Source: a virus. Taken from it: a stretch of 64,000 nucleotides of DNA. How positions within the stretch are numbered: position 1 is the stretch's first letter; every line of letters begins with the position of its first letter. The stretch is taken from IMG/VR virus record IMGVR_UViG_3300047557_002984, positions 1 to 64,000 of that record. One strand, 5' to 3'. Positions 20,472 through 29,742 of the stretch are shown piece after piece. The notes below the pieces were generated by a model. The model was not told the origin of the DNA. It saw only the letters and a list, made by a program, of their open reading frames with translations, and searched no databases. The position numbers were made by a program, and so were the translations under genes.

Positions 20472-20678
20472 TTAATTGTCTGCTGCGCGTTCGAGCGATT
20501 CAAGCCGCGCAGCTTCCTGCAATAATTCGGATAATTGCTGCTCTGCTGCCCCAAGCGTGCGGCGGATGGAGTCAATCAGACGGCGCTGCTTGGCTGCTGA
20601 CGCACGAATAACATCCGGCGTGATGTCTTGCCGGGAAATCCCTGCCAGCGACTTTACTAGCTTCGCTTGTTGAGCCAT
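20472..20678 (-). CDS. Hypothetical coiled-coil protein
   Basis: Downstream of a TATAAT element near 20705; RBS present. Confidence 0.55.
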   Translation of the reverse strand: MAQQAKLVKSLAGISRQDITPDVIRASAAKQRRLIDSIRRTLGAAEQQLSELLQEAARLESLERAADN

Positions 20679-20777
20679 ACACCTATTCGGGGCACCGTGT
20701 ACATTATAGCCCAGCCTGTTATTTTTTGTGCAAGAAATATTTAGAACAGTGAGTGGACGCTGGAGCAGAGCGAAAAC

Positions 20778-20844
20778 TTTTTTCGTGTTTTAATAATTTT
20801 ACACTTGCACTTTTGCAAGTGTTGCGATACTATCTGCCTGTCGG
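20778..20844 (+). promoter_or_regulatory. Promoter P1 with palindromic operator
   Basis: T-tract; TTGCAC(20805)-17 bp-TACTAT(20828); perfect inverted repeat CACTTGCA-CTTT-TGCAAGTG at 20802-20821. Confidence 0.85.
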
Positions 20845-20882
20845 TTGGCAATCACGCCAACGACGAACCAAGGAGGTTTCTT

Positions 20883-21098
20883 ATGGCAAACACTGCCGCT
20901 CATCAAATCGCTGTTTCCCACTTTGGCGCAAAGCGCATTAAAGCTTTGGCTGCTCTTGGCATCGTAATCGTCGGCATTCAAGCATTGCCGGATGCTACTG
21001 GCTCGTCTCTCAACTCAGAAACGGGGTACTGCCTCGACAACAACGGCGAGCATCAAGTTCGCAGCTATTTGGAAGTGATTGCGCTGGTTAATAGCTAA
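20883..21098 (+). CDS. Small hypothetical protein (anti-defence candidate)
   Basis: AAGGAGG RBS; first gene after P1. Confidence 0.7.
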   Translation: MANTAAHQIAVSHFGAKRIKALAALGIVIVGIQALPDATGSSLNSETGYCLDNNGEHQVRSYLEVIALVNS

Positions 21099-21155
21099 CC
21101 AGCGCAATCTAACCACCGTCCGCGAGCCTGCCCCGCTCGCCTTAATGGAGAGATC

Positions 21156-21359
21156 ATGTCAGTGCAAATCATTAAACCTAAGAGCAACACGCCACAGGCG
21201 GAGCAGGTGTTAATTGAAAACGGTTTTACGGTCTTGTCGCCGTGGGTAGACGACAACCGATTTGAAAAAGACGGGCAAGTTTACAAGCTTTCACATCCTG
21301 TTTGGCAGATTGGCCCGTCGGGAAATTTCGTTGGCGTGCGAATCGAGAAAGAAGATTGA
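21156..21359 (+). CDS. Small hypothetical protein
   Basis: GGAG RBS; second gene of the P1 operon. Confidence 0.7.
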   Translation: MSVQIIKPKSNTPQAEQVLIENGFTVLSPWVDDNRFEKDGQVYKLSHPVWQIGPSGNFVGVRIEKED

Positions 21360-21374
21360 GAACCCGCTCGCCTT

Positions 21375-21445
21375 CTTTTTTTTCTCGTTTTTAATGATTT
21401 CCCACTTGCACTTTTACAAGTAGAGTGGTACTATCTGCCTGTCGG
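21375..21445 (+). promoter_or_regulatory. Promoter P2 (copy of P1) with operator
   Basis: TTGCAC(21406)-17 bp-TACTAT(21429); ACTTGCACTTTTACAAGT; followed by the shared CTGCCTGTCGGT. Confidence 0.85.
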
Positions 21446-21481
21446 TGAGGGAAACGACAACTTTTAACAAGGAGCACGACA

Positions 21482-21676
21482 ATGACTTTCAACCAAATCG
21501 CCACGATGAACGAAATCCAAATCAGCACCGCGCTGCGCCAAATGACCAGAACTGAACTCATCGCCTTCTGCAAGGCGAACAAAATCGGCGACATCAAAAG
21601 ACTGGGCGGGCACCTGAACGCCGCCTTCCTGTGGTGCAAAGAAGTGGCAGCCTACGCCAGCATCACGCTGCGGTAA
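21482..21676 (+). CDS. Small hypothetical protein
   Basis: AAGGAG RBS after P2. Confidence 0.7.
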   Translation: MTFNQIATMNEIQISTALRQMTRTELIAFCKANKIGDIKRLGGHLNAAFLWCKEVAAYASITLR

Positions 21677-21729
21677 GGCTGAGGCAGTGCCCCGCTAACG
21701 ACAAGGAACAGACAACGAGGAGTAAAACG

Positions 21730-21915
21730 ATGCGTTACGACTTCATTCTTACGCGCGACAACACAAAAGACGGTGATCAATGGTTTGGCGAGGTCTACGC
21801 CCAACCACAGCAAGATGATGATGACGCTGTTCACACTACCGGATTTTGCGCCACATGGATGGACGCGCAAGCTGACTGCAACCAGTGGATTAAAAATCAA
21901 GAGGCAACGCAATGA
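21730..21915 (+). CDS. Small highly acidic protein
   Basis: GAGGAG RBS; MRYDFILTRD...QQDDDDAV. Confidence 0.7.
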   Translation: MRYDFILTRDNTKDGDQWFGEVYAQPQQDDDDAVHTTGFCATWMDAQADCNQWIKNQEATQ

Positions 21916-22172
21916 ACATCAGCGCAGCACTAGAACGCCTGCAAGCGCAAGGCGTCGAACTCACGCACCAAGGCTTACGCTACCGCATCATTCTGCTGAT
22001 TGAAGCTGGCAAGTTAAAAGAAGAAGAGGTCAAGCTTGGGATGACGCGCAAGGGCCAAGTCCGCTGGGATTTGAGCGAGAAGCACCTTGAAGTGATCGCC
22101 GCTTATGAAGCGCCGCCTGCCGGGCGCGGTGGCGGGCAATCGAAAGCAAAGCGCAAGGCGCGCAAGGAGTAG
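21912..22172 (+). CDS. Putative HTH DNA-binding protein (Aca-like candidate)
   Basis: MerR/excisionase-like pattern (MNISAA..RL...LT.QGLRYRI, W.LSE) with a basic tail; near the operon end. Confidence 0.6.
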   Translation: MNISAALERLQAQGVELTHQGLRYRIILLIEAGKLKEEEVKLGMTRKGQVRWDLSEKHLEVIAAYEAPPAGRGGGQSKAKRKARKE

Positions 22173-22174
22173 CG

Positions 22175-22387
22175 ATGGCCTTCAAAGCGCCACCAATGCC
22201 CGCCGCAATCTATCGTCCGGCACCCACCACGCCGGATGAGCAATTCCACGCTTACCGCACAGCACTGGCAATGCTCTGGGCGCACGCCGCAACCGCGACC
22301 GGCAGCACGCGCGATGAACTGGAAGATGCCGCCATCATTGCCCAGCGGGCGCTGGATGCGCTGGCGGATGAGCTACTGGCGCGCTAG
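22175..22387 (+). CDS. Hypothetical protein
   Basis: AAGGAG RBS. Confidence 0.55.
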   Translation: MAFKAPPMPAAIYRPAPTTPDEQFHAYRTALAMLWAHAATATGSTRDELEDAAIIAQRALDALADELLAR

Positions 22388-22695
22388 GCTGCCTTCCTTA
22401 CCGGCCCCCGGCTTTTGCGCCCGTTCCGTTGCGACGCCCGCACCTTTCGCCGCGTCTTCGCCTGCCCGCCTGCCTTCCCCGCCGCCGCCAACCGCGCGCG
22501 GTGCTCAACGTAAAATGCACCCACATCGGCCAACGCCAGCAGGTAGCGCCGCTGCGTCGCGCTCAACGCAAGATCGTCAAACATTAACGGCGCGCCCGGT
22601 TCCGCTAAGTAGTTGTGCAAATTCCAGGCCGCGAGGGCGGCATCTGCAAGCTGCTCCGGTGTAGGGCGATTACTCCCAGGATTTTGAATATTCAT
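22384..22695 (-). CDS. Basic-tailed putative DNA-binding protein
   Basis: C-terminal GKAGGQAKT.RK..ASQRNGRK.RGP. Confidence 0.55.
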   Translation of the reverse strand: MNIQNPGSNRPTPEQLADAALAAWNLHNYLAEPGAPLMFDDLALSATQRRYLLALADVGAFYVEHRARLAAAGKAGGQAKTRRKVRASQRNGRKSRGPVRKAA

Positions 22696-22888
22696 GGTCT
22701 TTGTAAATCGTCGGCAATCCGAACACCACAACGCGCGAAACCTTGTGCGCGCGCAGCTTGGCTAACTCGATGGCGACCCTGGTCTTGCCCGTCCCCATCT
22801 CCATGAGCAAACCACCAATGCGCGACGGCAGCACTTTGGCAACCGCTGCGCGTTGGTGGCTCATCAGGTCTGTGCGGGTGGTGAACAT
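22670..22888 (-). pseudogene. Truncated SNF2-type helicase N-terminus
   Basis: LM.HQ.AAV Q-motif and LLMEMGTGKTR Walker A, then a stop at 72 aa with no further helicase motifs. Confidence 0.75.
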
Positions 22889-22891
22889 TAG

Positions 22892-23290
22892 CTATTGCGC
22901 GACATTAACAACAATCGGAGTTTGCGCGTTGAGTTGCGCGATCTCTGAATCGGAAATTGGTCGGCAATCCGTACGAGACCATGTAGCCATGACGTGGCCC
23001 AACAGAATGGAACCAGGGTATTCAAGCGTGTGCCATTTGGTGGGGTGCATGATGTCGCCCCGGTTCGGGACGGACTTGAAAATCGGAGAGTATGCGTGCT
23101 GCCCTTCCGCGTCTGCTTCGTTATACGAGCGATCAATGATCACCCCGCATAAAGAATCTGTGAGCTTTGCGTTGAGAACACCCGAAGGCGCATCTGCGAG
23201 CGAACAGAGAGAAGCGTATGCACTTTGAGGATTGCTGTTGAATCGGGAGGTTCTGACGAACCCCACGAGTTGAAGTTGGATCGTAGACAT
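22892..23290 (-). CDS. Hypothetical protein
   Basis: AAGGAG RBS; second gene of the 23.87-kb promoter operon. Confidence 0.65.
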   Translation of the reverse strand: MSTIQLQLVGFVRTSRFNSNPQSAYASLCSLADAPSGVLNAKLTDSLCGVIIDRSYNEADAEGQHAYSPIFKSVPNRGDIMHPTKWHTLEYPGSILLGHVMATWSRTDCRPISDSEIAQLNAQTPIVVNVAQ

Positions 23291-23292
23291 TG

Positions 23293-23814
23293 TTAAAAGT
23301 CTCCTTTCGTGTAAGGCGTACCATCATGGTCTGCTGGGCTGAACGATTCGCCTGCCACGCCAATCCCGCCCGCCGCGATGCGGAGCAACTTGGCGCAAGT
23401 CGCGCACAGCGGATCGTATACCGTAACACCCGCAACTTTCCCTTTGCGGAAGGTCGGTTGGCCTTCGATCCGATCACCGCACCGCTCGCAATGGAAAATC
23501 TCAGCAGGAGGGGCGGGAATTTCACCCGACGCTTGCCACGCGGAAACCGCCGATTCAATGGCGGCAACCGCCGCCATACGGATCAGGATGCCGTCGCAGA
23601 TGGCGTACTCCGCTGGGTTTGCATTCAGCTTCTTCAACTGCGCAACCATTCCCGACGGAAGATTGCGCGAAATCTCAGTCTTGCCCGCCGCATCCAGCGG
23701 GAAGAAGTTGATTCCCTGGCTTTTCGTGCCATTGCTAATGGTCACGCGATACGTGCGCCCGTCTGCGCTGCCCGTGACCGTGTAGTTGCCGTCTTGGTAG
23801 ATTGTCGTTTCCAT
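23293..23814 (-). CDS. Hypothetical protein with a C-terminal Zn finger
   Basis: CERC...CATC motif; AAGGAG RBS. Confidence 0.7.
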   Translation of the reverse strand: METTIYQDGNYTVTGSADGRTYRVTISNGTKSQGINFFPLDAAGKTEISRNLPSGMVAQLKKLNANPAEYAICDGILIRMAAVAAIESAVSAWQASGEIPAPPAEIFHCERCGDRIEGQPTFRKGKVAGVTVYDPLCATCAKLLRIAAGGIGVAGESFSPADHDGTPYTKGDF

Positions 23815-23846
23815 TGCGTTTCTCCTTGATTTCTTAGGGCAAGGGA

Positions 23847-23875
23847 ATACTACCCCAAGCTAGCTTAGGATGCAA
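23847..23875 (-). promoter_or_regulatory. Promoter with palindromic spacer
   Basis: TTGCAT-17 bp (CCTAAGCTAGCTTGGGG)-TAGTAT; a related site lies at 24542-24558. Confidence 0.75.
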
Positions 23876-23884
23876 GCAAGAAAA

Positions 23885-24529
23885 TCAATCTTCGTCTAAA
23901 AATTCCGGCGCGATTCCCTCCGACACAGCTTCCACCTCCGGCGCAGCCTTCACGCGCGGGCGCAACTCCACGCGCACCGCTTGCAAGCGCCGCTGGCGCG
24001 CATCTTCCGCAACCTGCTGGGCGGCATCAGACACCCGAAATCCGTACTGTTGCGCGAAATCTAGCACCGCCTCATAGCTCTCTGGCGGCACGGCCACGCA
24101 CGGCTTGTCATATCTCGCGCCGGGCAGCTTGATCGCGTGCCGGTACATGTCATCGCCGCGCCGATACTCAATGTAAAACCAGCCCGCCCGCGCTCCCTTG
24201 ATCAGCTTCGTCACCCAGCGCGTTTGTTCATCCTGGTACTGCCCCGCCGCGATGCGCTCCACATCGTAATCATCCGGCACGGCCACCACGAACCCCTTGC
24301 TCAGCAGCTTGTATGCCGCCTCTATCAACCGATCCGGGAGCGGCCCGTTGCGCAAGGTGATCTGGCGCTCGCGTCGCATTTCCTGCTCGTTCCAGCGCAG
24401 GTTTAAGTTGTAGGCAATGTCGCGCAACACATCGTCGCGTTGCGCGAATTTCAGGCACAGCAAGTCGCCGACCGCGTAAAGCTCGGCAATCGTCTCCGTG
24501 CGCGGATTGTCTGGCCGCAAGGTAATCAT
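23885..24529 (-). CDS. Hypothetical protein, HARP-like/helicase-associated
   Basis: AIKLPGARYD...V.P......VLDFA..YGF pattern. Confidence 0.6.
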   Translation of the reverse strand: MITLRPDNPRTETIAELYAVGDLLCLKFAQRDDVLRDIAYNLNLRWNEQEMRRERQITLRNGPLPDRLIEAAYKLLSKGFVVAVPDDYDVERIAAGQYQDEQTRWVTKLIKGARAGWFYIEYRRGDDMYRHAIKLPGARYDKPCVAVPPESYEAVLDFAQQYGFRVSDAAQQVAEDARQRRLQAVRVELRPRVKAAPEVEAVSEGIAPEFLDED

Positions 24530-24743
24530 GGGGCGATTTTACCCTAACCTGGCTTGGGCTGGTAGCAAAAAAAATAATCCCGCGCACTTTTTCTCGCACG
24601 CGGGATTGCGCATTTCGTGAGCCAGCCTTTCGGCACCCACCGCCAGCGCAGGCGAACGCGGCTATGATAGCAGATCGCGCCGCGCGGGCAACTCAGTAAA
24701 GCGAACTATCCGCGATGCCAAATTCCCGGCGAATATCCGCCAA

Positions 24744-25487
24744 CTAGGCCATCTCTGATCGAAGCCTATTAAGCACGGCTGACACATCGGCTAAAACTTC
24801 CTCGTTCGTGAACCGAATAACCCGATAACCAACACGCCTTAAATGCTCATCACGCTGGTTGTCGTAACCTTCTCTGCCATTATGAAAAGACCCGTCTATT
24901 TCCACGATGATTTTATGATCAGCGATTAAAAAATCGGCAATGTATCCATATACGGGAATCTGGGGAGCAATCCCTTGTAGCTTTTGCGATTTACAGGCTA
25001 ACCAAAAACATTCCTCGGCTGGGGTTAAATTCCGACGCATTCGATTAGCAAACTTCGCCTTTTCAGGCTTGCATTTGCTTTGCATGTCCCGCAATTCCGC
25101 AACCTGATCCCTTGATAGCTTAGCTTGACCATATCCAATTTGAGGAACAGCATCGCCCCTGGTCGTGTAACCGCCCTTATTATTTTCAGTTTCCAAGATG
25201 AATGTATATTCCCAGCTAATCCGATCTCTTTCATTGTCGGCTGATGGCATAAACCGCACTCGCTTTAAATGCTGCTTGCCTTCCAGTTCTTTTAAGACTT
25301 TTTGCAGCTTTTCTTTTCCCCAGCCAGTCTTAACCCTGAGCCAGCTCATGTAAAACTGCCAGTTCTTTGGCAAGACAGACACCATCGCCAAAAGAAAGCG
25401 AGCATCTGATGATAGACAGGTATCTAGCATCACATCAGACGATACGATGCCAAAACCGTTAGATTTTCTCTCAACCTTACAAATCAT
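24744..25487 (-). CDS. Rep-like winged helix fused to a DUF559 (Vsr-like) endonuclease
   Basis: N-terminal LS..AR.LL....LP.NW and LKELE..; C-terminal MRRNLTPAE, YIADF, IVEIDGS.H, RD..L...GY.VIRFTNEEV; AT-rich. Confidence 0.8.
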   Translation of the reverse strand: MICKVERKSNGFGIVSSDVMLDTCLSSDARFLLAMVSVLPKNWQFYMSWLRVKTGWGKEKLQKVLKELEGKQHLKRVRFMPSADNERDRISWEYTFILETENNKGGYTTRGDAVPQIGYGQAKLSRDQVAELRDMQSKCKPEKAKFANRMRRNLTPAEECFWLACKSQKLQGIAPQIPVYGYIADFLIADHKIIVEIDGSFHNGREGYDNQRDEHLRRVGYRVIRFTNEEVLADVSAVLNRLRSEMA

Positions 25488-25750
25488 TTGTCCTTCTCCT
25501 GCGTAAAACATTGAAGAAGGCTAAAGAGGCAAGAATGGCAGTGGATTTTTGACAAAGCGAGAAAAGGCCGTGTTAGTATCCATCCGCTAACAATCTCTCT
25601 TTAACCGTGAATTGTTAGCAACGGCCCTTGAAGGTAGCAGTTCAAGGGCCATCGCTTTTCCCGCACATTATACCAAAAACTACCGAAAATAGAGCAAGAA
25701 AAAGGCCACCCGTAACGAGCGCACCACTCCCGCTCCAACGATTCACCGCT

Positions 25751-25822
25751 CTTTTTTTTTTCGTGTTTAATAATTTTCCACTTGCATTTTTACAAGTAAA
25801 AGGCTATTATCTGCCTGTCGGT
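25751..25822 (+). promoter_or_regulatory. Promoter P3 (copy of P1/P2) with operator
   Basis: TTGCAT(25782)-17 bp-TATTAT(25805); ACTTGCATTTTTACAAGT; CTGCCTGTCGGT. Confidence 0.85.
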
Positions 25823-25862
25823 GAGGACAACGAAACAACAACCGCTAACAAGGAGCACGACA

Positions 25863-26087
25863 ATGACAGACCTGATGACACGCAAAGCAAACCTCGAAAA
25901 TCAACTTTCCCAGATCGCAGGCGTTTCCGTCGAAGTGACCGTGCGCGGGCTGCGCGCCTTCACCTTCAGCTTTGAAACCGTGAACGCGGAAGCGGTCGCC
26001 GCTATTGAAAAGTACTTCGGCGACCTCGCCAAGCTGGAAGTCGAAGTGGACGAAGAATGCGGCACATTCATTTACGCCACGGTCTAA
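25863..26087 (+). CDS. Small acidic protein (anti-defence candidate)
   Basis: RBS region TAACAAGGAGCACGACAATGAC identical to that of the P2 gene; monocistronic. Confidence 0.75.
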   Translation: MTDLMTRKANLENQLSQIAGVSVEVTVRGLRAFTFSFETVNAEAVAAIEKYFGDLAKLEVEVDEECGTFIYATV

Positions 26088-26106
26088 AACGCCGGGCGTG
26101 CAAAAG

Positions 26107-26134
26107 AAAAGGCCACCCGCGAAGGTGGCCTTTT
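26107..26134. terminator. Bidirectional intrinsic terminator
   Basis: AAAA-GGCCACC-CGCGAA-GGTGGCC-TTTT between convergent genes. Confidence 0.85.
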
Positions 26135-26137
26135 CTG

Positions 26138-26389
26138 TTAAGCGGCGTCTGAATGAGTGCTCAGCAGTTCCGGCTGACTGAGCAATTTATTGATCGCTCT
26201 TGAACACTCCCGGTCAGCATCCGTAACTAATCCCTGGCCAGTCTTCAAGAATCCCACCAGCCAAGCCTGACGCTGCTCAATTTCACCGGGCCGGGGTTTA
26301 TATTCTCCGTTTGCAGCTTGTGCGATCATGCTCAAATGAGCCAGCGCAATCGGCAGATAGTCAGCCTGCGTAAGATTTGCGGTTTCCAA
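26138..26389 (-). CDS. Hypothetical protein
   Basis: AAGGAG RBS, TTG start. Confidence 0.55.
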   Translation of the reverse strand: METANLTQADYLPIALAHLSMIAQAANGEYKPRPGEIEQRQAWLVGFLKTGQGLVTDADRECSRAINKLLSQPELLSTHSDAA

Positions 26390-26779
26390 TTTGTTTCTCC
26401 TTGGCTAGCAAGCCGGATTGCTCCAAACTTTTCCAATTAAAATATCCCGCCAACGGAAAAGCTGAGTTATCCGCAGACGTGCGATCTGGCTTTCGACTGA
26501 GTACCCACAAATACGAAATCCCATACTCAGTTTCGGCGATGTTATACCCCGGATAGCGGCGAATGAGCCACCCCTTTCTAACACGACTACGCTTCCACTT
26601 TGACCGATTGAACGGCTCGACAGTCAGTTTTTCCTTATATCGTGTTAAATCAGTCACTTGCGCGACAGGCTGAGCACTCAGTTTGGGCCAAGCTGAGCAC
26701 TCAGTTTGGGCTACATCAGCCGCCGCTTGTTGTAGGTCAGCGGCGTCTGAATGAGTGCTCAGCGATTCCGGCTGACTGA
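26141..26779. repeat. 41-bp direct repeat pair plus an internal 20-bp tandem pair sharing TGAG-NN-CTCA
   Basis: 26141-26181 vs 26739-26779 (2 mismatches); GCTGAGCACTCAGTTTGGGC at 26669 and 26692. Confidence 0.9.
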
Positions 26780-26783
26780 CCAC
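26361..26783 (-). CDS. Hypothetical protein (C-terminal part of the 344-aa track ORF)
   Basis: GTG start at 26783 after an AGGTGG RBS; protein-like composition begins only here. Confidence 0.55.
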   Translation of the reverse strand: MVSQPESLSTHSDAADLQQAAADVAQTECSAWPKLSAQPVAQVTDLTRYKEKLTVEPFNRSKWKRSRVRKGWLIRRYPGYNIAETEYGISYLWVLSRKPDRTSADNSAFPLAGYFNWKSLEQSGLLAKEKQIGNRKSYAG

Positions 26784-26794
26784 TTGCCCCCCAC

Positions 26795-28577: not shown

Positions 28578-28808
28578 TCACTTTTTCTTTTTCTTCGGTT
28601 TCGGCCCTGAACCGGGCCGCGCCCCGCCGCGCTGTCTCGGTGGCAGGTCGAGCGCAAGGCGCACGATGTTCTGGTTGGTCAGCGCCGCGAAGGCGACATC
28701 ATCCAGATCGGGCGCGTTTGCGCGTGCGCGCGGGCAGATGATGTCGCGCCATTCGGCGGCGGTGAAGCGGAGCTTCTCCACGATGATGGATTCTTTTAAT
28801 GTTCCCAT
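28578..28808 (-). CDS. Small putative DNA-binding regulator (Aca-like candidate)
   Basis: RHH-like N-terminus and RGGARPGSGPKPKKKKK tail; last gene of the DUF1874 operon. Confidence 0.6.
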   Translation of the reverse strand: MGTLKESIIVEKLRFTAAEWRDIICPRARANAPDLDDVAFAALTNQNIVRLALDLPPRQRGGARPGSGPKPKKKKK

Positions 28809-28812
28809 TTGC

Positions 28813-29334
28813 TTAAATCACAGCCACCCGCTCAATCCCCTTGGCGGTAAAGGTAAATTCCTCGCCGCCCGCAACCTGAACCTCTTTCCCTCCATCAGAC
28901 GCGAAGCCAAGCAAGGGCTCTTGGCTTAACCTAGTATCAAGCAGGACAGGGCAACCATCTGCAAGATTTCGCGGCATATCTTGCGGCTTCCACCATCGAA
29001 GCGAAAACAGGTTGAATGTGATGAGCGCGCCAAAGGTAAATCCAATGGCGTGGCACTCTTCTGCTGTTAGAATTTTGCCTTCGGGCGGTCGCCCGTTGAG
29101 CTTGAAGACAATCGCCACATCTCCAAGCCGCTGCTTATATTGAATGCGATTTACCGGAACATCTTGCCCTAGCAACTCAGAGAGAATCTGCGCTGTGGCA
29201 TCGTGGCCGATGGCCGATGTCACCGTGGCGCTTGGCTGATTTACCAGCCACTGCGCTTGTTGCAATGTCAGCGGGGCATAAACGGACGCCCCGTGCGTTG
29301 TCAGGATTGACGTGTTCAGTAATGCGATGTTCAT
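28813..29334 (-). CDS. acrIII-1: DUF1874/YddF family protein = AcrIII-1 ring nuclease homologue with a C-terminal extension
   Basis: LLN.SI, SAIGHDATAQILSELLG (catalytic GH), VNRIQY and FKL.GR.PEGKILT motifs. Confidence 0.85.
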   Translation of the reverse strand: MNIALLNTSILTTHGASVYAPLTLQQAQWLVNQPSATVTSAIGHDATAQILSELLGQDVPVNRIQYKQRLGDVAIVFKLNGRPPEGKILTAEECHAIGFTFGALITFNLFSLRWWKPQDMPRNLADGCPVLLDTRLSQEPLLGFASDGGKEVQVAGGEEFTFTAKGIERVAVI

Positions 29335-29372
29335 GATTCTCCTTTACTTCGCAGTATTACTTATGGGTTAAG

Positions 29373-29591
29373 TTACGCAGCAGGTGCTTTCTCTAAGCGC
29401 CAGACATTTCCGGGCACTTGCTGTCCGACCATGTCGGCGAGTAAAGCGGTGGCGTACACTACTGCTTCTTTTTGCCATTTACCACTAATGTTTAGAAATT
29501 CGCCTGTTTGAATGTTAACAACGCAAAAGCCCTGCTTTTGCGTTTCTGGCACGTTCGTTAATGCGCCCCGACTCAGTTCGTCGTGATACAT
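29373..29591 (-). CDS. Small hypothetical protein (anti-defence candidate)
   Basis: AAGGAG RBS; first gene of the AcrIII-1 operon. Confidence 0.7.
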   Translation of the reverse strand: MYHDELSRGALTNVPETQKQGFCVVNIQTGEFLNISGKWQKEAVVYATALLADMVGQQVPGNVWRLEKAPAA

Positions 29592-29662
29592 ACATTTCTC
29601 CTTGTTTTTTTACTGCGTCCTTGTTTCTCTCCGGCGACCCCATGCCGCCTTCGATGGTTTGC

Positions 29663-29690
29663 ATTATATTCAAAGTCGAACTTGAATCAA
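29663..29690 (-). promoter_or_regulatory. Promoter of the AcrIII-1 operon with operator
   Basis: TTGATT-16 bp-TATAAT; imperfect palindrome ATTCAAGTTCGACTTTGAAT at 29668-29687. Confidence 0.8.
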
Positions 29691-29708
29691 GGGAAAAATG
29701 CGATTGCG

Positions 29709-29742
29709 CAAAAAAAAAAGAGCCAGCCCGAAGACTGGCCCT
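29709..29742 (-). terminator. Intrinsic terminator after dnaN
   Basis: AGGGCCAGTC-TTCG-GGCTGGCTCT followed by a long U run. Confidence 0.85.

What the first reader, a model, noticed from the sequence alone, without database searches (positions are those of the whole stretch)
20778..26134. Dispersed regulon of cloned promoter-operator cassettes driving tiny genes (candidate anti-defence system)
Seen: three near-identical 70-100 bp modules at 20778, 21375 and 25751. Each has a T-tract, TTGCAY-17-TAYTAT, the inverted repeat ACTTGCA-N4-TRCAAGT over the -35, and CTGCCTGTCGGT. P2 and P3 also share TAACAAGGAGCACGACAATGAC. All point against the surrounding gene flow and drive unrelated 61-74 aa proteins, two clearly acidic. 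One HTH-like gene (21912-22172) lies near the end of the P2 operon. Inference: one repressor controls several physically separate immediate-early cassettes, like an acr-aca regulon spread across the genome, and the cargo genes are new Acr, anti-RM or DNA-mimic candidates.
Basis: partly seen in the sequence, partly recalled or inferred. Interest (0 to 1): 0.8.

Follow-up and report, generated by a model that had tools for sequence, protein, structure and literature searches.

The report
Reused promoter-operator part driving phage morons
A temperate phage uses the same roughly 85-base promoter, with a built-in palindromic operator, three times within 5.4 kb to drive small accessory genes. One of these operons looks like an anti-CRISPR (acr-aca) operon, so it is a good candidate set but a known kind of arrangement.

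Summary
Three copies of an ~84-nt module lie at 20773-20856, 21374-21457 and 25750-25833. Each has a T-tract/AT-rich stretch, the palindrome ACTTGCA-N4-TRCAAGT over a TTGCAY -35, 7 variable nt, then an invariant TAYTATCTGCCTGTCGGT. These are the only copies in the 74-kb virus record and exceed chance.

The modules head three plus-strand units in a minus-strand accessory region of an integrase-bearing siphophage:
- P1: c1a, c1b.
- P2: c2a, c2b, c2c, c2d.
- P3: c3a plus a strong terminator.

Microhomology repeats at terminator arms flank c1b and the P3 cassette, as expected of morons.

c2c (21912-22172) matches no Pfam family and has no distant relatives. Its predicted fold resembles MerR/Xis-type winged-helix DNA-binding domains (Z 5-7, moderate). 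In two metagenomic relatives c2c and c2d are conserved, while the slot just upstream holds three unrelated acidic proteins (pI 4.05, 4.74, 4.21). This matches acr-aca architecture.

The most likely mechanism is that c2c represses its own promoter and, in trans, P1 and P3. Binding, timing and any anti-defence role are untested. "Dispersed across the genome" is overstated.

An Aca regulator controlling its own and a neighbouring operon through a shared repeat is already published. Verdict: new member of a known kind, interest 0.4. The scan did not find this module on other DNA.

The parts
20773..20856 (+). Module P1: T-tract/AT-rich stretch, palindrome 20803-20820 (perfect 7-4-7), -35 TTGCAC 20805-20810, -10 TACTAT 20828-20833, invariant CTGCCTGTCGGT 20834-20845
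20883..21098 (+). c1a, 71 aa, with a hydrophobic TM-like segment. Member of phrog_27490, with relatives in Rhizobium and Sinorhizobium phages
21122..21143 (+). GC-rich hairpin after c1a. Its right arm, CCCGCTCGCCTT (21132-21143), recurs at 21363-21374. Removing the DNA between the two copies restores a hairpin followed by a U-tract, a terminator-like structure
21156..21359 (+). c1b, 67 aa, flanked by the 12-nt direct repeat; matches no family
21363..21457 (+). Module P2: second copy of the 12-nt repeat plus T-tract, palindrome 21404-21421 (one mismatch), -35 21406-21411, -10 21429-21434, invariant 12-mer 21435-21446
21482..21676 (+). c2a, 64 aa, basic. HeH/LEM-like is only a lead. 83% identical in L055
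21730..21915 (+). c2b, 61 aa, pI 4.05, found in no other record. This is the variable slot, replaced by unrelated acidic proteins of 69 aa (L055) and 84 aa (L056)
21912..22172 (+). c2c, 86 aa, basic with a K/R-rich tail; its start overlaps the c2b stop (ATGA). Candidate regulator with a MerR/Xis-like winged-helix model. Found only as close homologues in one lineage
22175..22387 (+). c2d, 70 aa, conserved together with c2c in both relatives (83-87% identity); function unknown
25700..25712 (+). First copy of the 13-nt repeat AAAAGGCCACCCG. The second copy, 26107-26119, is the left arm of the terminator. Together they bracket the P3 cassette
25750..25833 (+). Module P3: palindrome 25780-25797, -35 25782-25787, -10 TATTAT 25805-25810, invariant 12-mer 25811-25822
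25863..26087 (+). c3a, 74 aa, pI 4.37, member of phrog_22104. Confident alpha/beta sandwich model with no specific structural match. The family occurs in Septimatrevirus and in Bacteroides phages
26104..26136 (.). Strong bidirectional intrinsic terminator closing the P3 cassette (-27.4 kcal/mol for the 61-nt stretch folded, 26085-26145; z -3.9)

Best explanation
The three modules are copies of one expression part. Each has a degenerate terminator remnant with a T-tract, an AT-rich upstream stretch, and a sigma-70-type promoter (TTGCAY, 17 nt, TAYTAT). The -35 sits inside an 18-bp 7-4-7 palindrome, and a fixed 12-nt segment follows the -10.

The modules head three small plus-strand transcription units. 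These were inserted as morons, by recombination at short homologies in terminator arms, into the minus-strand accessory region of a temperate siphophage.

The palindrome most likely acts as an operator. A dimeric DNA-binding protein sitting on it would cover the -35 and block RNA polymerase. The best candidate is c2c (21912-22172), a lineage-restricted 86-aa winged-helix-like protein. It is conserved at the end of the P2 operon, directly after a slot that holds a different acidic protein in each relative.

c2c would then repress its own operon and, in trans, P1 and P3. This is the acr-aca logic with one regulator for several operons.

Shown: the repeats, their block-wise conservation, the gene layout, the slot swapping and the insertion scars. 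Inferred: promoter activity, c2c binding, repression, and what the cargo does.
For: - The repeats exceed chance and are confined to these three sites.
- The palindrome and the -10 block are 16-18 of 18 identical in four copies, while the 7 nt between them are 1-4 of 7 identical and the flanks are unrelated. This points to constraint rather than only recent copying.
- The palindrome is perfect in P1 and in the P2 copy of L055.
- Each -10 lies about 50 nt upstream of a start codon that has an RBS.
- The c2c model (pLDDT 76.5) has a helix-helix-helix-hairpin layout. Its best structural matches are DNA-binding winged-helix domains: ParA2 N-terminus Z 6.9, P1 ParA 6.0, RacA 5.1, CvkR 5.1, pSK1 Par 5.0, then GlnR, TnrA, CueR, SoxR, Xis and TorI.
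- c2c and c2d are conserved (81-94% and 83-87% identity). The slot before c2c holds three unrelated acidic proteins, and the swap boundaries fall at the RBS/start codon and at the ATGA junction.
- A 12-nt and a 13-nt direct repeat at terminator arms flank c1b and the P3 cassette.
- GC is lower in the cassettes, 0.45-0.53 against 0.55-0.60 in most of the surrounding DNA.
- An AcrIII-1-family gene nearby sits in an operon of the same design, with a terminator, a promoter carrying its own palindrome, and an AACAAGGAG RBS.
- The precedent is published: Aca2 represses its operon through inverted repeats in the promoter (PMC6765145), and Aca14 represses both its own and a neighbouring operon through a shared repeat (PMC13551039).
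Against: - c2c has no sequence-level link to any HTH, MerR or Aca family.
- Its fold matches lie below the tool's own confidence line (Z under 8), and the model was made from a single sequence.
- c2c lacks the long dimerisation helix of MerR proteins, and Xis-type proteins often bind direct rather than inverted repeats.
- All relatives found are close, so regulator and operator cannot be tested for co-variation.
- The hexamers match the consensus only 3 of 6 and 4 of 6, and the promoter scanner did not call them.
- No cargo protein resembles a known anti-defence protein.
- The record is only about 74% complete, so another regulator could be encoded in the missing part.
Confidence: 0.5

Rival explanations
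1. The modules are only copied promoter parts, with no dedicated repressor. Recombination duplicated a convenient strong promoter when the morons were built. On this view the palindrome persists because it contains the -35 and because the copies are young or homogenised by gene conversion.
For: P2 and P3 are 86% identical and share their leader. All copies lie within 5.4 kb. Insertion scars show active cassette shuffling. The T-tract is explicable as a former terminator tail.
Against: The right arm of the palindrome lies outside the -35 hexamer, yet it is kept at 6-7 of 7 positions in all four copies. The adjacent 7 nt have diverged to 1-4 of 7. P1 otherwise differs widely from P2 and P3.
Confidence: 0.2
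2. The palindrome is an operator, but for another protein. This could be a host regulator, the phage's main repressor, or a factor encoded in the missing quarter of the genome. c2c would then be something else, for example an excision factor or a general DNA-binding protein.
For: The record is 74% complete and holds no recognisable CI/XRE, S24 or MerR repressor. In unrelated low-GC phages and bacteria the same palindrome, at the same promoter position, precedes XRE/CI-type repressor genes. c2c also resembles Xis and TorI, and the phage has an integrase.
Against: The palindrome occurs nowhere else in the 74 kb, so no main early or immunity promoter in the record carries it. The record has no homologue of those XRE repressors. 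Two better excisionase candidates with HTH_17 matches exist elsewhere. c2c is conserved at the end of a palindrome-headed operon.
Confidence: 0.2
3. c2c and the palindromes form a DNA-organising or partition-like system, comparable to pSK1 Par, RacA or the N-terminal domain of type Ia ParA. The sites would serve segregation or anchoring rather than gene control.
For: The top structural matches are the ParA2 and P1 ParA N-terminal domains, RacA and pSK1 Par.
Against: There are only three sites. Each sits exactly over a -35 at a fixed distance from a -10 and a gene start. No ParA-type ATPase was seen next to them. The phage integrates.
Confidence: 0.05

Closest known systems
acr-aca operons with an autorepressing Aca, including Aca14, which controls its own and a neighbouring operon (PMC6765145; PMC13551039)
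   Same: A strong promoter carries an inverted repeat. Small variable genes, often acidic, lie upstream of a conserved small DNA-binding protein at the end of the operon. The same repeat appears in the promoters of nearby operons. The setting is a temperate phage, with a known Acr family close by.
   Different: No cargo protein is a known Acr. c2c is not a sequence relative of any known Aca, and its model is a MerR/Xis-like winged helix rather than a classical HTH or RHH. Here the whole ~85-nt promoter part is copied, not only the repeat. Repression is untested.
Morons of temperate phages (promoter-gene-terminator units inserted between phage genes; Juhala/Hendrix concept, cited from my own knowledge)
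   Same: Each is a self-contained unit on the opposite strand with lower GC. P3 has its own promoter and a strong terminator. Insertion scars are present, and content differs between close relatives.
   Different: Classical morons each bring their own unrelated promoter. Here three units share one promoter-operator part, which implies common control.
Dispersed operator regulons of phage repressors (P1 C1 operators, mycobacteriophage L5 stoperators; from my own knowledge)
   Same: One recognition sequence is repeated at several separate transcription units of a phage genome.
   Different: Those sites are asymmetric, number 17-30, are spread over the whole genome and serve the immunity repressor. 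Here there are three symmetric sites in one 5.4-kb accessory region.
MerR-type promoters
   Same: A 7-4-7 dyad lies within a promoter, and the candidate binder has a MerR-like winged-helix fold.
   Different: MerR dyads sit inside an over-long 19-20-bp spacer and activate by DNA distortion. Here the spacer is 17 bp and the dyad covers the -35, which is repressor geometry. c2c also has no effector or coiled-coil domain.

Membership tests
acr-aca type autoregulated anti-defence operon | Inverted repeat within or overlapping the operon promoter | tested here: met
   The 18-bp 7-4-7 palindrome covers the -35 in all three modules.
acr-aca type autoregulated anti-defence operon | A small DNA-binding regulator (HTH or RHH) encoded in the operon, usually last or near last | tested here: inconclusive
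   c2c has no Pfam, PHROG or PDB sequence match. Its single-sequence AF2 model (pLDDT 76.5) resembles MerR/Xis-type winged-helix domains at Z 5.0-6.9, below the tool's confidence line.
acr-aca type autoregulated anti-defence operon | Regulator belongs to a described Aca family | tested here: not met
   A profile of c2c and its homologues against all PDB sequences, at E up to 10, gave only two rows, neither named as an Aca. phmmer against 1.84 billion representatives finds only c2c's own cluster. No dedicated Aca library was available.
acr-aca type autoregulated anti-defence operon | A validated or recognisable anti-defence gene in the operon | tested here: inconclusive
   No cargo protein matches Pfam, PHROGs with a known function, or PDB sequences. 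The c3a fold is non-specific. No Acr or anti-defence library was on hand.
acr-aca type autoregulated anti-defence operon | Variable cargo next to a conserved regulator among relatives | tested here: met
   Three unrelated acidic proteins occupy the slot before c2c in the window, L055 and L056, while c2c and c2d are conserved.
acr-aca type autoregulated anti-defence operon | Regulator binds the repeat and represses the promoter | not testable with these tools
   This needs EMSA and reporter assays. No protein-DNA modelling tool was available.
Moron | Own promoter and own terminator around one or a few genes, set against the local gene flow | tested here: met
   P3 has the promoter module and a terminator (-27.4 kcal/mol for the stretch folded, z -3.9). 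For P1 and P2 the terminator is degenerate or split. Flanking genes are on the minus strand.
Moron | Signs of insertion: scars, deviating composition, absence or variation in relatives | tested here: met
   12-nt and 13-nt direct repeats flank the units. GC is lower. Content varies in L055 and L056.
Sigma-70 promoter | -35 and -10 hexamers near consensus with a 16-18-nt spacer | tested here: inconclusive
   TTGCAY matches 3 of 6, TAYTAT matches 4 of 6, and the spacer is 17 nt. The scanner did not call them. An AT-rich upstream stretch and the fixed distance to the genes argue in favour. No transcript data exist.
MerR-type activated promoter | Dyad centred in a 19-20-bp spacer | tested here: not met
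   The spacer is 17 nt. The dyad starts 2 nt before the -35 and ends 7 nt before the -10.
Integron gene cassette (attC) | Imperfect palindromic recombination site at the 3' end of each cassette, next to an integron integrase | tested here: not met
   The palindrome lies 5' of the genes, inside a promoter. Cassette boundaries fall at terminator arms. The only integrase found is about 27 kb away.

The most novel reading that the evidence does not exclude
The phage lineage keeps a standard plug-in part: terminator remnant, promoter, operator and leader/RBS. Newly captured genes are wired through it into one co-regulated accessory regulon. Capture happens by microhomology at terminator arms, and by swapping at RBS and ATGA junctions. 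The regulon would be governed by a new winged-helix (MerR/Xis-like) class of Aca-type repressor, and its acidic slot proteins would be new anti-defence proteins.
Probability: 0.25. Interest if true: 0.6.

Novelty: new member of a known kind. Interest (0 to 1): 0.4.

Why it matters
If c2c proves to be the repressor, it would add a structurally different regulator family to the Aca set. That would give a new guilt-by-association marker for finding anti-defence genes. Candidates so far are three orphan acidic proteins in the slot, plus c1b, c2d and c3a. The locus would also be a clear natural example of one promoter-operator part being reused to place several morons under common control. The concept itself is already established: Aca autorepression, Aca control of neighbouring operons, and morons.

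Tried and rejected
Searches for homologous modules elsewhere:
- Exact-pattern scans of IMG/VR for the palindrome, for the -10 block, and for palindrome plus -10 gave only unrelated or chance hits.
- A scan of GTDB genomes gave only low-GC Firmicutes and Tenericutes promoters.
- blastn of the module against isolated phages found nothing.

Searches for relatives through proteins:
- Protein-based searches in IMG/VR with c3a and with the 214-aa neighbour gave nothing useful.
- L039 and L040 are not relatives.
The 24-kb and 7.3-kb contigs holding c2c homologues P0006 and P0003 therefore could not be read.
- phmmer of c2c against 1.84 billion representatives found only its own cluster, so a co-variation test is impossible.
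- c2b has no homologue in any other record among 5.8 billion proteins.

Function of the cargo and nearby RNA:
- Pfam, PHROGs and PDB sequence searches of the cargo gave no function.
- Rfam and tRNA scans of the region found nothing above threshold.

Ideas rejected:
- N4-type hairpin promoter: the open 1053-aa ORF at the contig end is a tape measure protein, not a virion RNA polymerase.
- Integron attC.
- MerR-type activation geometry.
- FNR/CRP class II activation: the palindrome centre is about 28-30 nt from the likely start, not 41.5.
- Terminator function of the palindrome on either strand: no U-tract follows it.
- An XRE repressor like those next to the same palindrome in Firmicutes phages: the record has no homologue.


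Full report
**Setting**

The window is the first 64 kb of a 74,321-bp IMG/VR virus record, classed as linear and about 74% complete. It is a siphovirus-like phage with these genes:
- minus strand: tape measure, major head protein, portal, large terminase, a ParB-methyltransferase fusion, primase/helicase and an exonuclease;
- minus strand: a clamp, DUF5131, a C5 methylase and a dCTP deaminase;
- plus strand: a block with a Rad52-like protein, SSB and a tyrosine integrase.

The integrase indicates a temperate phage. The portal is only about 28-30% identical to those of isolated phages of Pseudomonas, Stenotrophomonas, Bordetella and Variovorax.

**Observation**

Three copies of an 84-nt repeat lie at 20773, 21374 and 25750. 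The palindrome and the -10 block each occur exactly three times. Shuffles never reach that count. The rest of the record has no further copy.

Alignment of the three copies, and block counts that also include the P2 copy of relative L055, show the layout:
- a T-tract and AT-rich stretch;
- ACTTGCA-N4-TRCAAGT, 16-18 of 18 identical, containing TTGCAY;
- seven variable nucleotides, 1-4 of 7 identical;
- TAYTATCTGCCTGTCGGT, 17-18 of 18 identical;
- a leader that only P2 and P3 share (D6).

DNA upstream of the T-tract is unrelated between copies (7-10 of 30). This uneven pattern argues for constraint on the palindrome and on the -10/start block. Recent duplication alone would not produce it.

**Genes**

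The plus-strand ORFs have RBSs and coding-type GC by codon position.
- P1 drives c1a and c1b. c1a is 71 aa with a hydrophobic segment, belongs to phrog_27490, and has relatives in Rhizobium and Sinorhizobium phages. c1b is 67 aa.
- P2 drives c2a, c2b, c2c and c2d. c2a is 64 aa and basic, with HeH/LEM-like only as a lead. c2b is 61 aa with pI 4.05. c2c is 86 aa and basic. c2d is 70 aa.
- P3 drives c3a, then a strong terminator. c3a is 74 aa with pI 4.37 and belongs to phrog_22104.

The cargo proteins are mutually unrelated. None matches a Pfam family or a solved structure.

The c3a family is highly conserved. It occurs in lytic Septimatrevirus phages, and at 33-46% identity in Bacteroides phages. 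In phage DLP_1 it has its own TTGACG-17-TACTAT promoter. Its confident model is a plain alpha/beta sandwich with no specific match.

**Cassette nature**

- CCCGCTCGCCTT flanks the c1b unit. Its first copy is the right arm of the hairpin after c1a.
- Joining the two copies in silico restores a hairpin followed by a U-tract. The T-tract at the head of P2 is therefore probably a former terminator tail.
- AAAAGGCCACCCG brackets the P3 cassette. Its second copy is the left arm of the terminator.
- GC is lower in the cassettes than in most of the surrounding DNA.

These are moron features.

A nearby minus-strand operon holds a STIV_B116-like/DUF1874 protein, the AcrIII-1 family. It has the same design with a different palindrome: terminator, promoter with a palindrome in the spacer, and an AACAAGGAG RBS.

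**Candidate regulator**

c2c has no family match. Its only homologues are six close ones, 81-94% identical. A full phmmer search of 1.84 billion representatives found only its own cluster.

A single-sequence AF2 model (pLDDT 76.5) gives three helices, a beta hairpin and a further helix. Foldseek matches are weak but dominated by MerR-family domains. VIA-align ranks these highest:
- ParA2 N-terminus, Z 6.9;
- P1 ParA N-terminus, Z 6.0;
- RacA, Z 5.1;
- CvkR, Z 5.1;
- pSK1 Par, Z 5.0;
- GlnR and TnrA, Z 4.6;
- then CueR, SoxR, BmrR, Xis and TorI.

The theme is consistent: MerR/Xis-like winged-helix DNA binding. The scores, however, are below the tool's confidence line.

**Relatives**

Two metagenome contigs were recovered.

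L055 matches window 20861-23367 at 84-92% identity.
- It begins just after the P1 module, which fits an assembly break at a repeat. This is my inference.
- It keeps P2 with a perfect palindrome and a different 7-nt spacer.
- It has c1a, c1b, c2a, c2c and c2d, but a different 69-aa protein in the c2b slot.

L056 has a third, unrelated 84-aa protein in that slot. c2c and c2d are conserved, but its minus-strand neighbours differ: a ParB-like protein, a PAPS-reductase/DUF3440 protein and an SNF2 C-terminus.

All three slot proteins are acidic, with pI 4.05, 4.74 and 4.21. The swap boundaries are the RBS/start codon and the ATGA junction with c2c. c2b itself has no homologue outside this record.

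**Mechanism**

The layout fits a sigma-70-type promoter whose -35 lies within an operator. The half-site centres are 11 bp apart. The palindrome centre lies about 28-30 nt upstream of the likely start, which is repressor geometry.

The most economical reading is that c2c represses P2 (autoregulation) and also P1 and P3 in trans. This is the published acr-aca logic (PMC6765145). It includes one Aca controlling its own and a neighbouring operon through a shared repeat (PMC13551039).

Nothing here shows binding, repression, timing or anti-defence activity.

The invariant CTGCCTGTCGGT after the -10 remains unexplained. It could be a GC-rich discriminator or start region, or a second recognition element.

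**Rivals**

- Copied promoter parts with no dedicated repressor.
- An operator for another regulator, from the host or from the missing quarter of the genome.
- A partition-like role for c2c and the palindromes.

These are weighed in their own sections of this report.

**Side result bearing on the second rival**

In unrelated low-GC phages and bacteria, the same palindrome at the same promoter position precedes genes for mutually homologous XRE/CI-type repressors. This geometry is therefore a recurrent operator design. The present record has no homologue of those repressors. It also has no XRE, S24 or MerR Pfam hit.

**Verdict**

This is a plausible new acr-aca-like, multi-promoter accessory regulon built from a reused promoter-operator part in a moron-rich region. 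It is a new member of a known kind. Its value is as a source of anti-defence candidates, and possibly of a new regulator family.

Noticed in passing
L006:9361-10059, L045:2775-3202, L047:3583-4358 (minus), L021 (minus): In unrelated low-GC phages and bacteria, the same ACTTGCA-N4-TGCAAGT palindrome over a -35 lies directly upstream of XRE/Cro-CI-type repressor genes. One of these carries an S24 peptidase domain. Three of the repressors are 38-57% identical to each other. This is probably their operator, and convergent with the phage studied here.
   Followed up: partly
window 22670-22888 (minus); L056:1086-4590: Only a 72-aa N-terminal stub of an SNF2/ResIII helicase remains here, and it is also broken in L055. 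Relative L056 instead carries an SNF2 C-terminus followed by a 289-aa unknown protein, a PAPS-reductase/DUF3440 protein, a ParB-like protein and a 218-aa protein. This region is hypervariable or decaying.
   Followed up: partly
window 24744-25511 (minus): A low-GC (0.44) gene fuses an N-terminal DNA-binding/Rep-like region to a DUF559 (Vsr-like endonuclease) domain, next to the P3 cassette. It is probably a recently acquired selfish or nuclease gene.
   Followed up: partly
window 28578-29742 (minus): An operon contains a STIV_B116-like/DUF1874 (AcrIII-1 family) protein of 173 aa. It lies behind a terminator and a promoter with its own palindrome, ATTCAA-N8-TTGAAT, in the spacer, and uses the same AACAAGGAG RBS style as P2 and P3.
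   Followed up: partly
window 20703-20732 (minus): A promoter-like site, TTGCAC/TGCACA then TATAAT, lies back to back with P1 upstream of the 68-aa gene 20472-20678. It may start the lysis and late genes, and it uses the same TTGCAC -35 variant.
   Followed up: no
window 26141-26187 and 26739-26785; 26666-26711: A 47-nt direct repeat (91% identical) occurs 598 nt apart, and a 23-nt tandem pair lies just beyond the P3 terminator.
   Followed up: no
L055:2017-2629: Relative L055 has about 610 nt that the window lacks, lying between the helicase stub and the 132-aa gene. This stretch includes a 107-aa minus-strand ORF with no family match.
   Followed up: partly
window 25863-26087: The c3a family (ending DxECGTFIYAT) is strongly conserved across phages of Pseudomonas, Stenotrophomonas, Xanthomonas and Variovorax. 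It also occurs in large Bacteroides phages, an unusually wide spread for a 74-aa protein of unknown function.
   Followed up: partly
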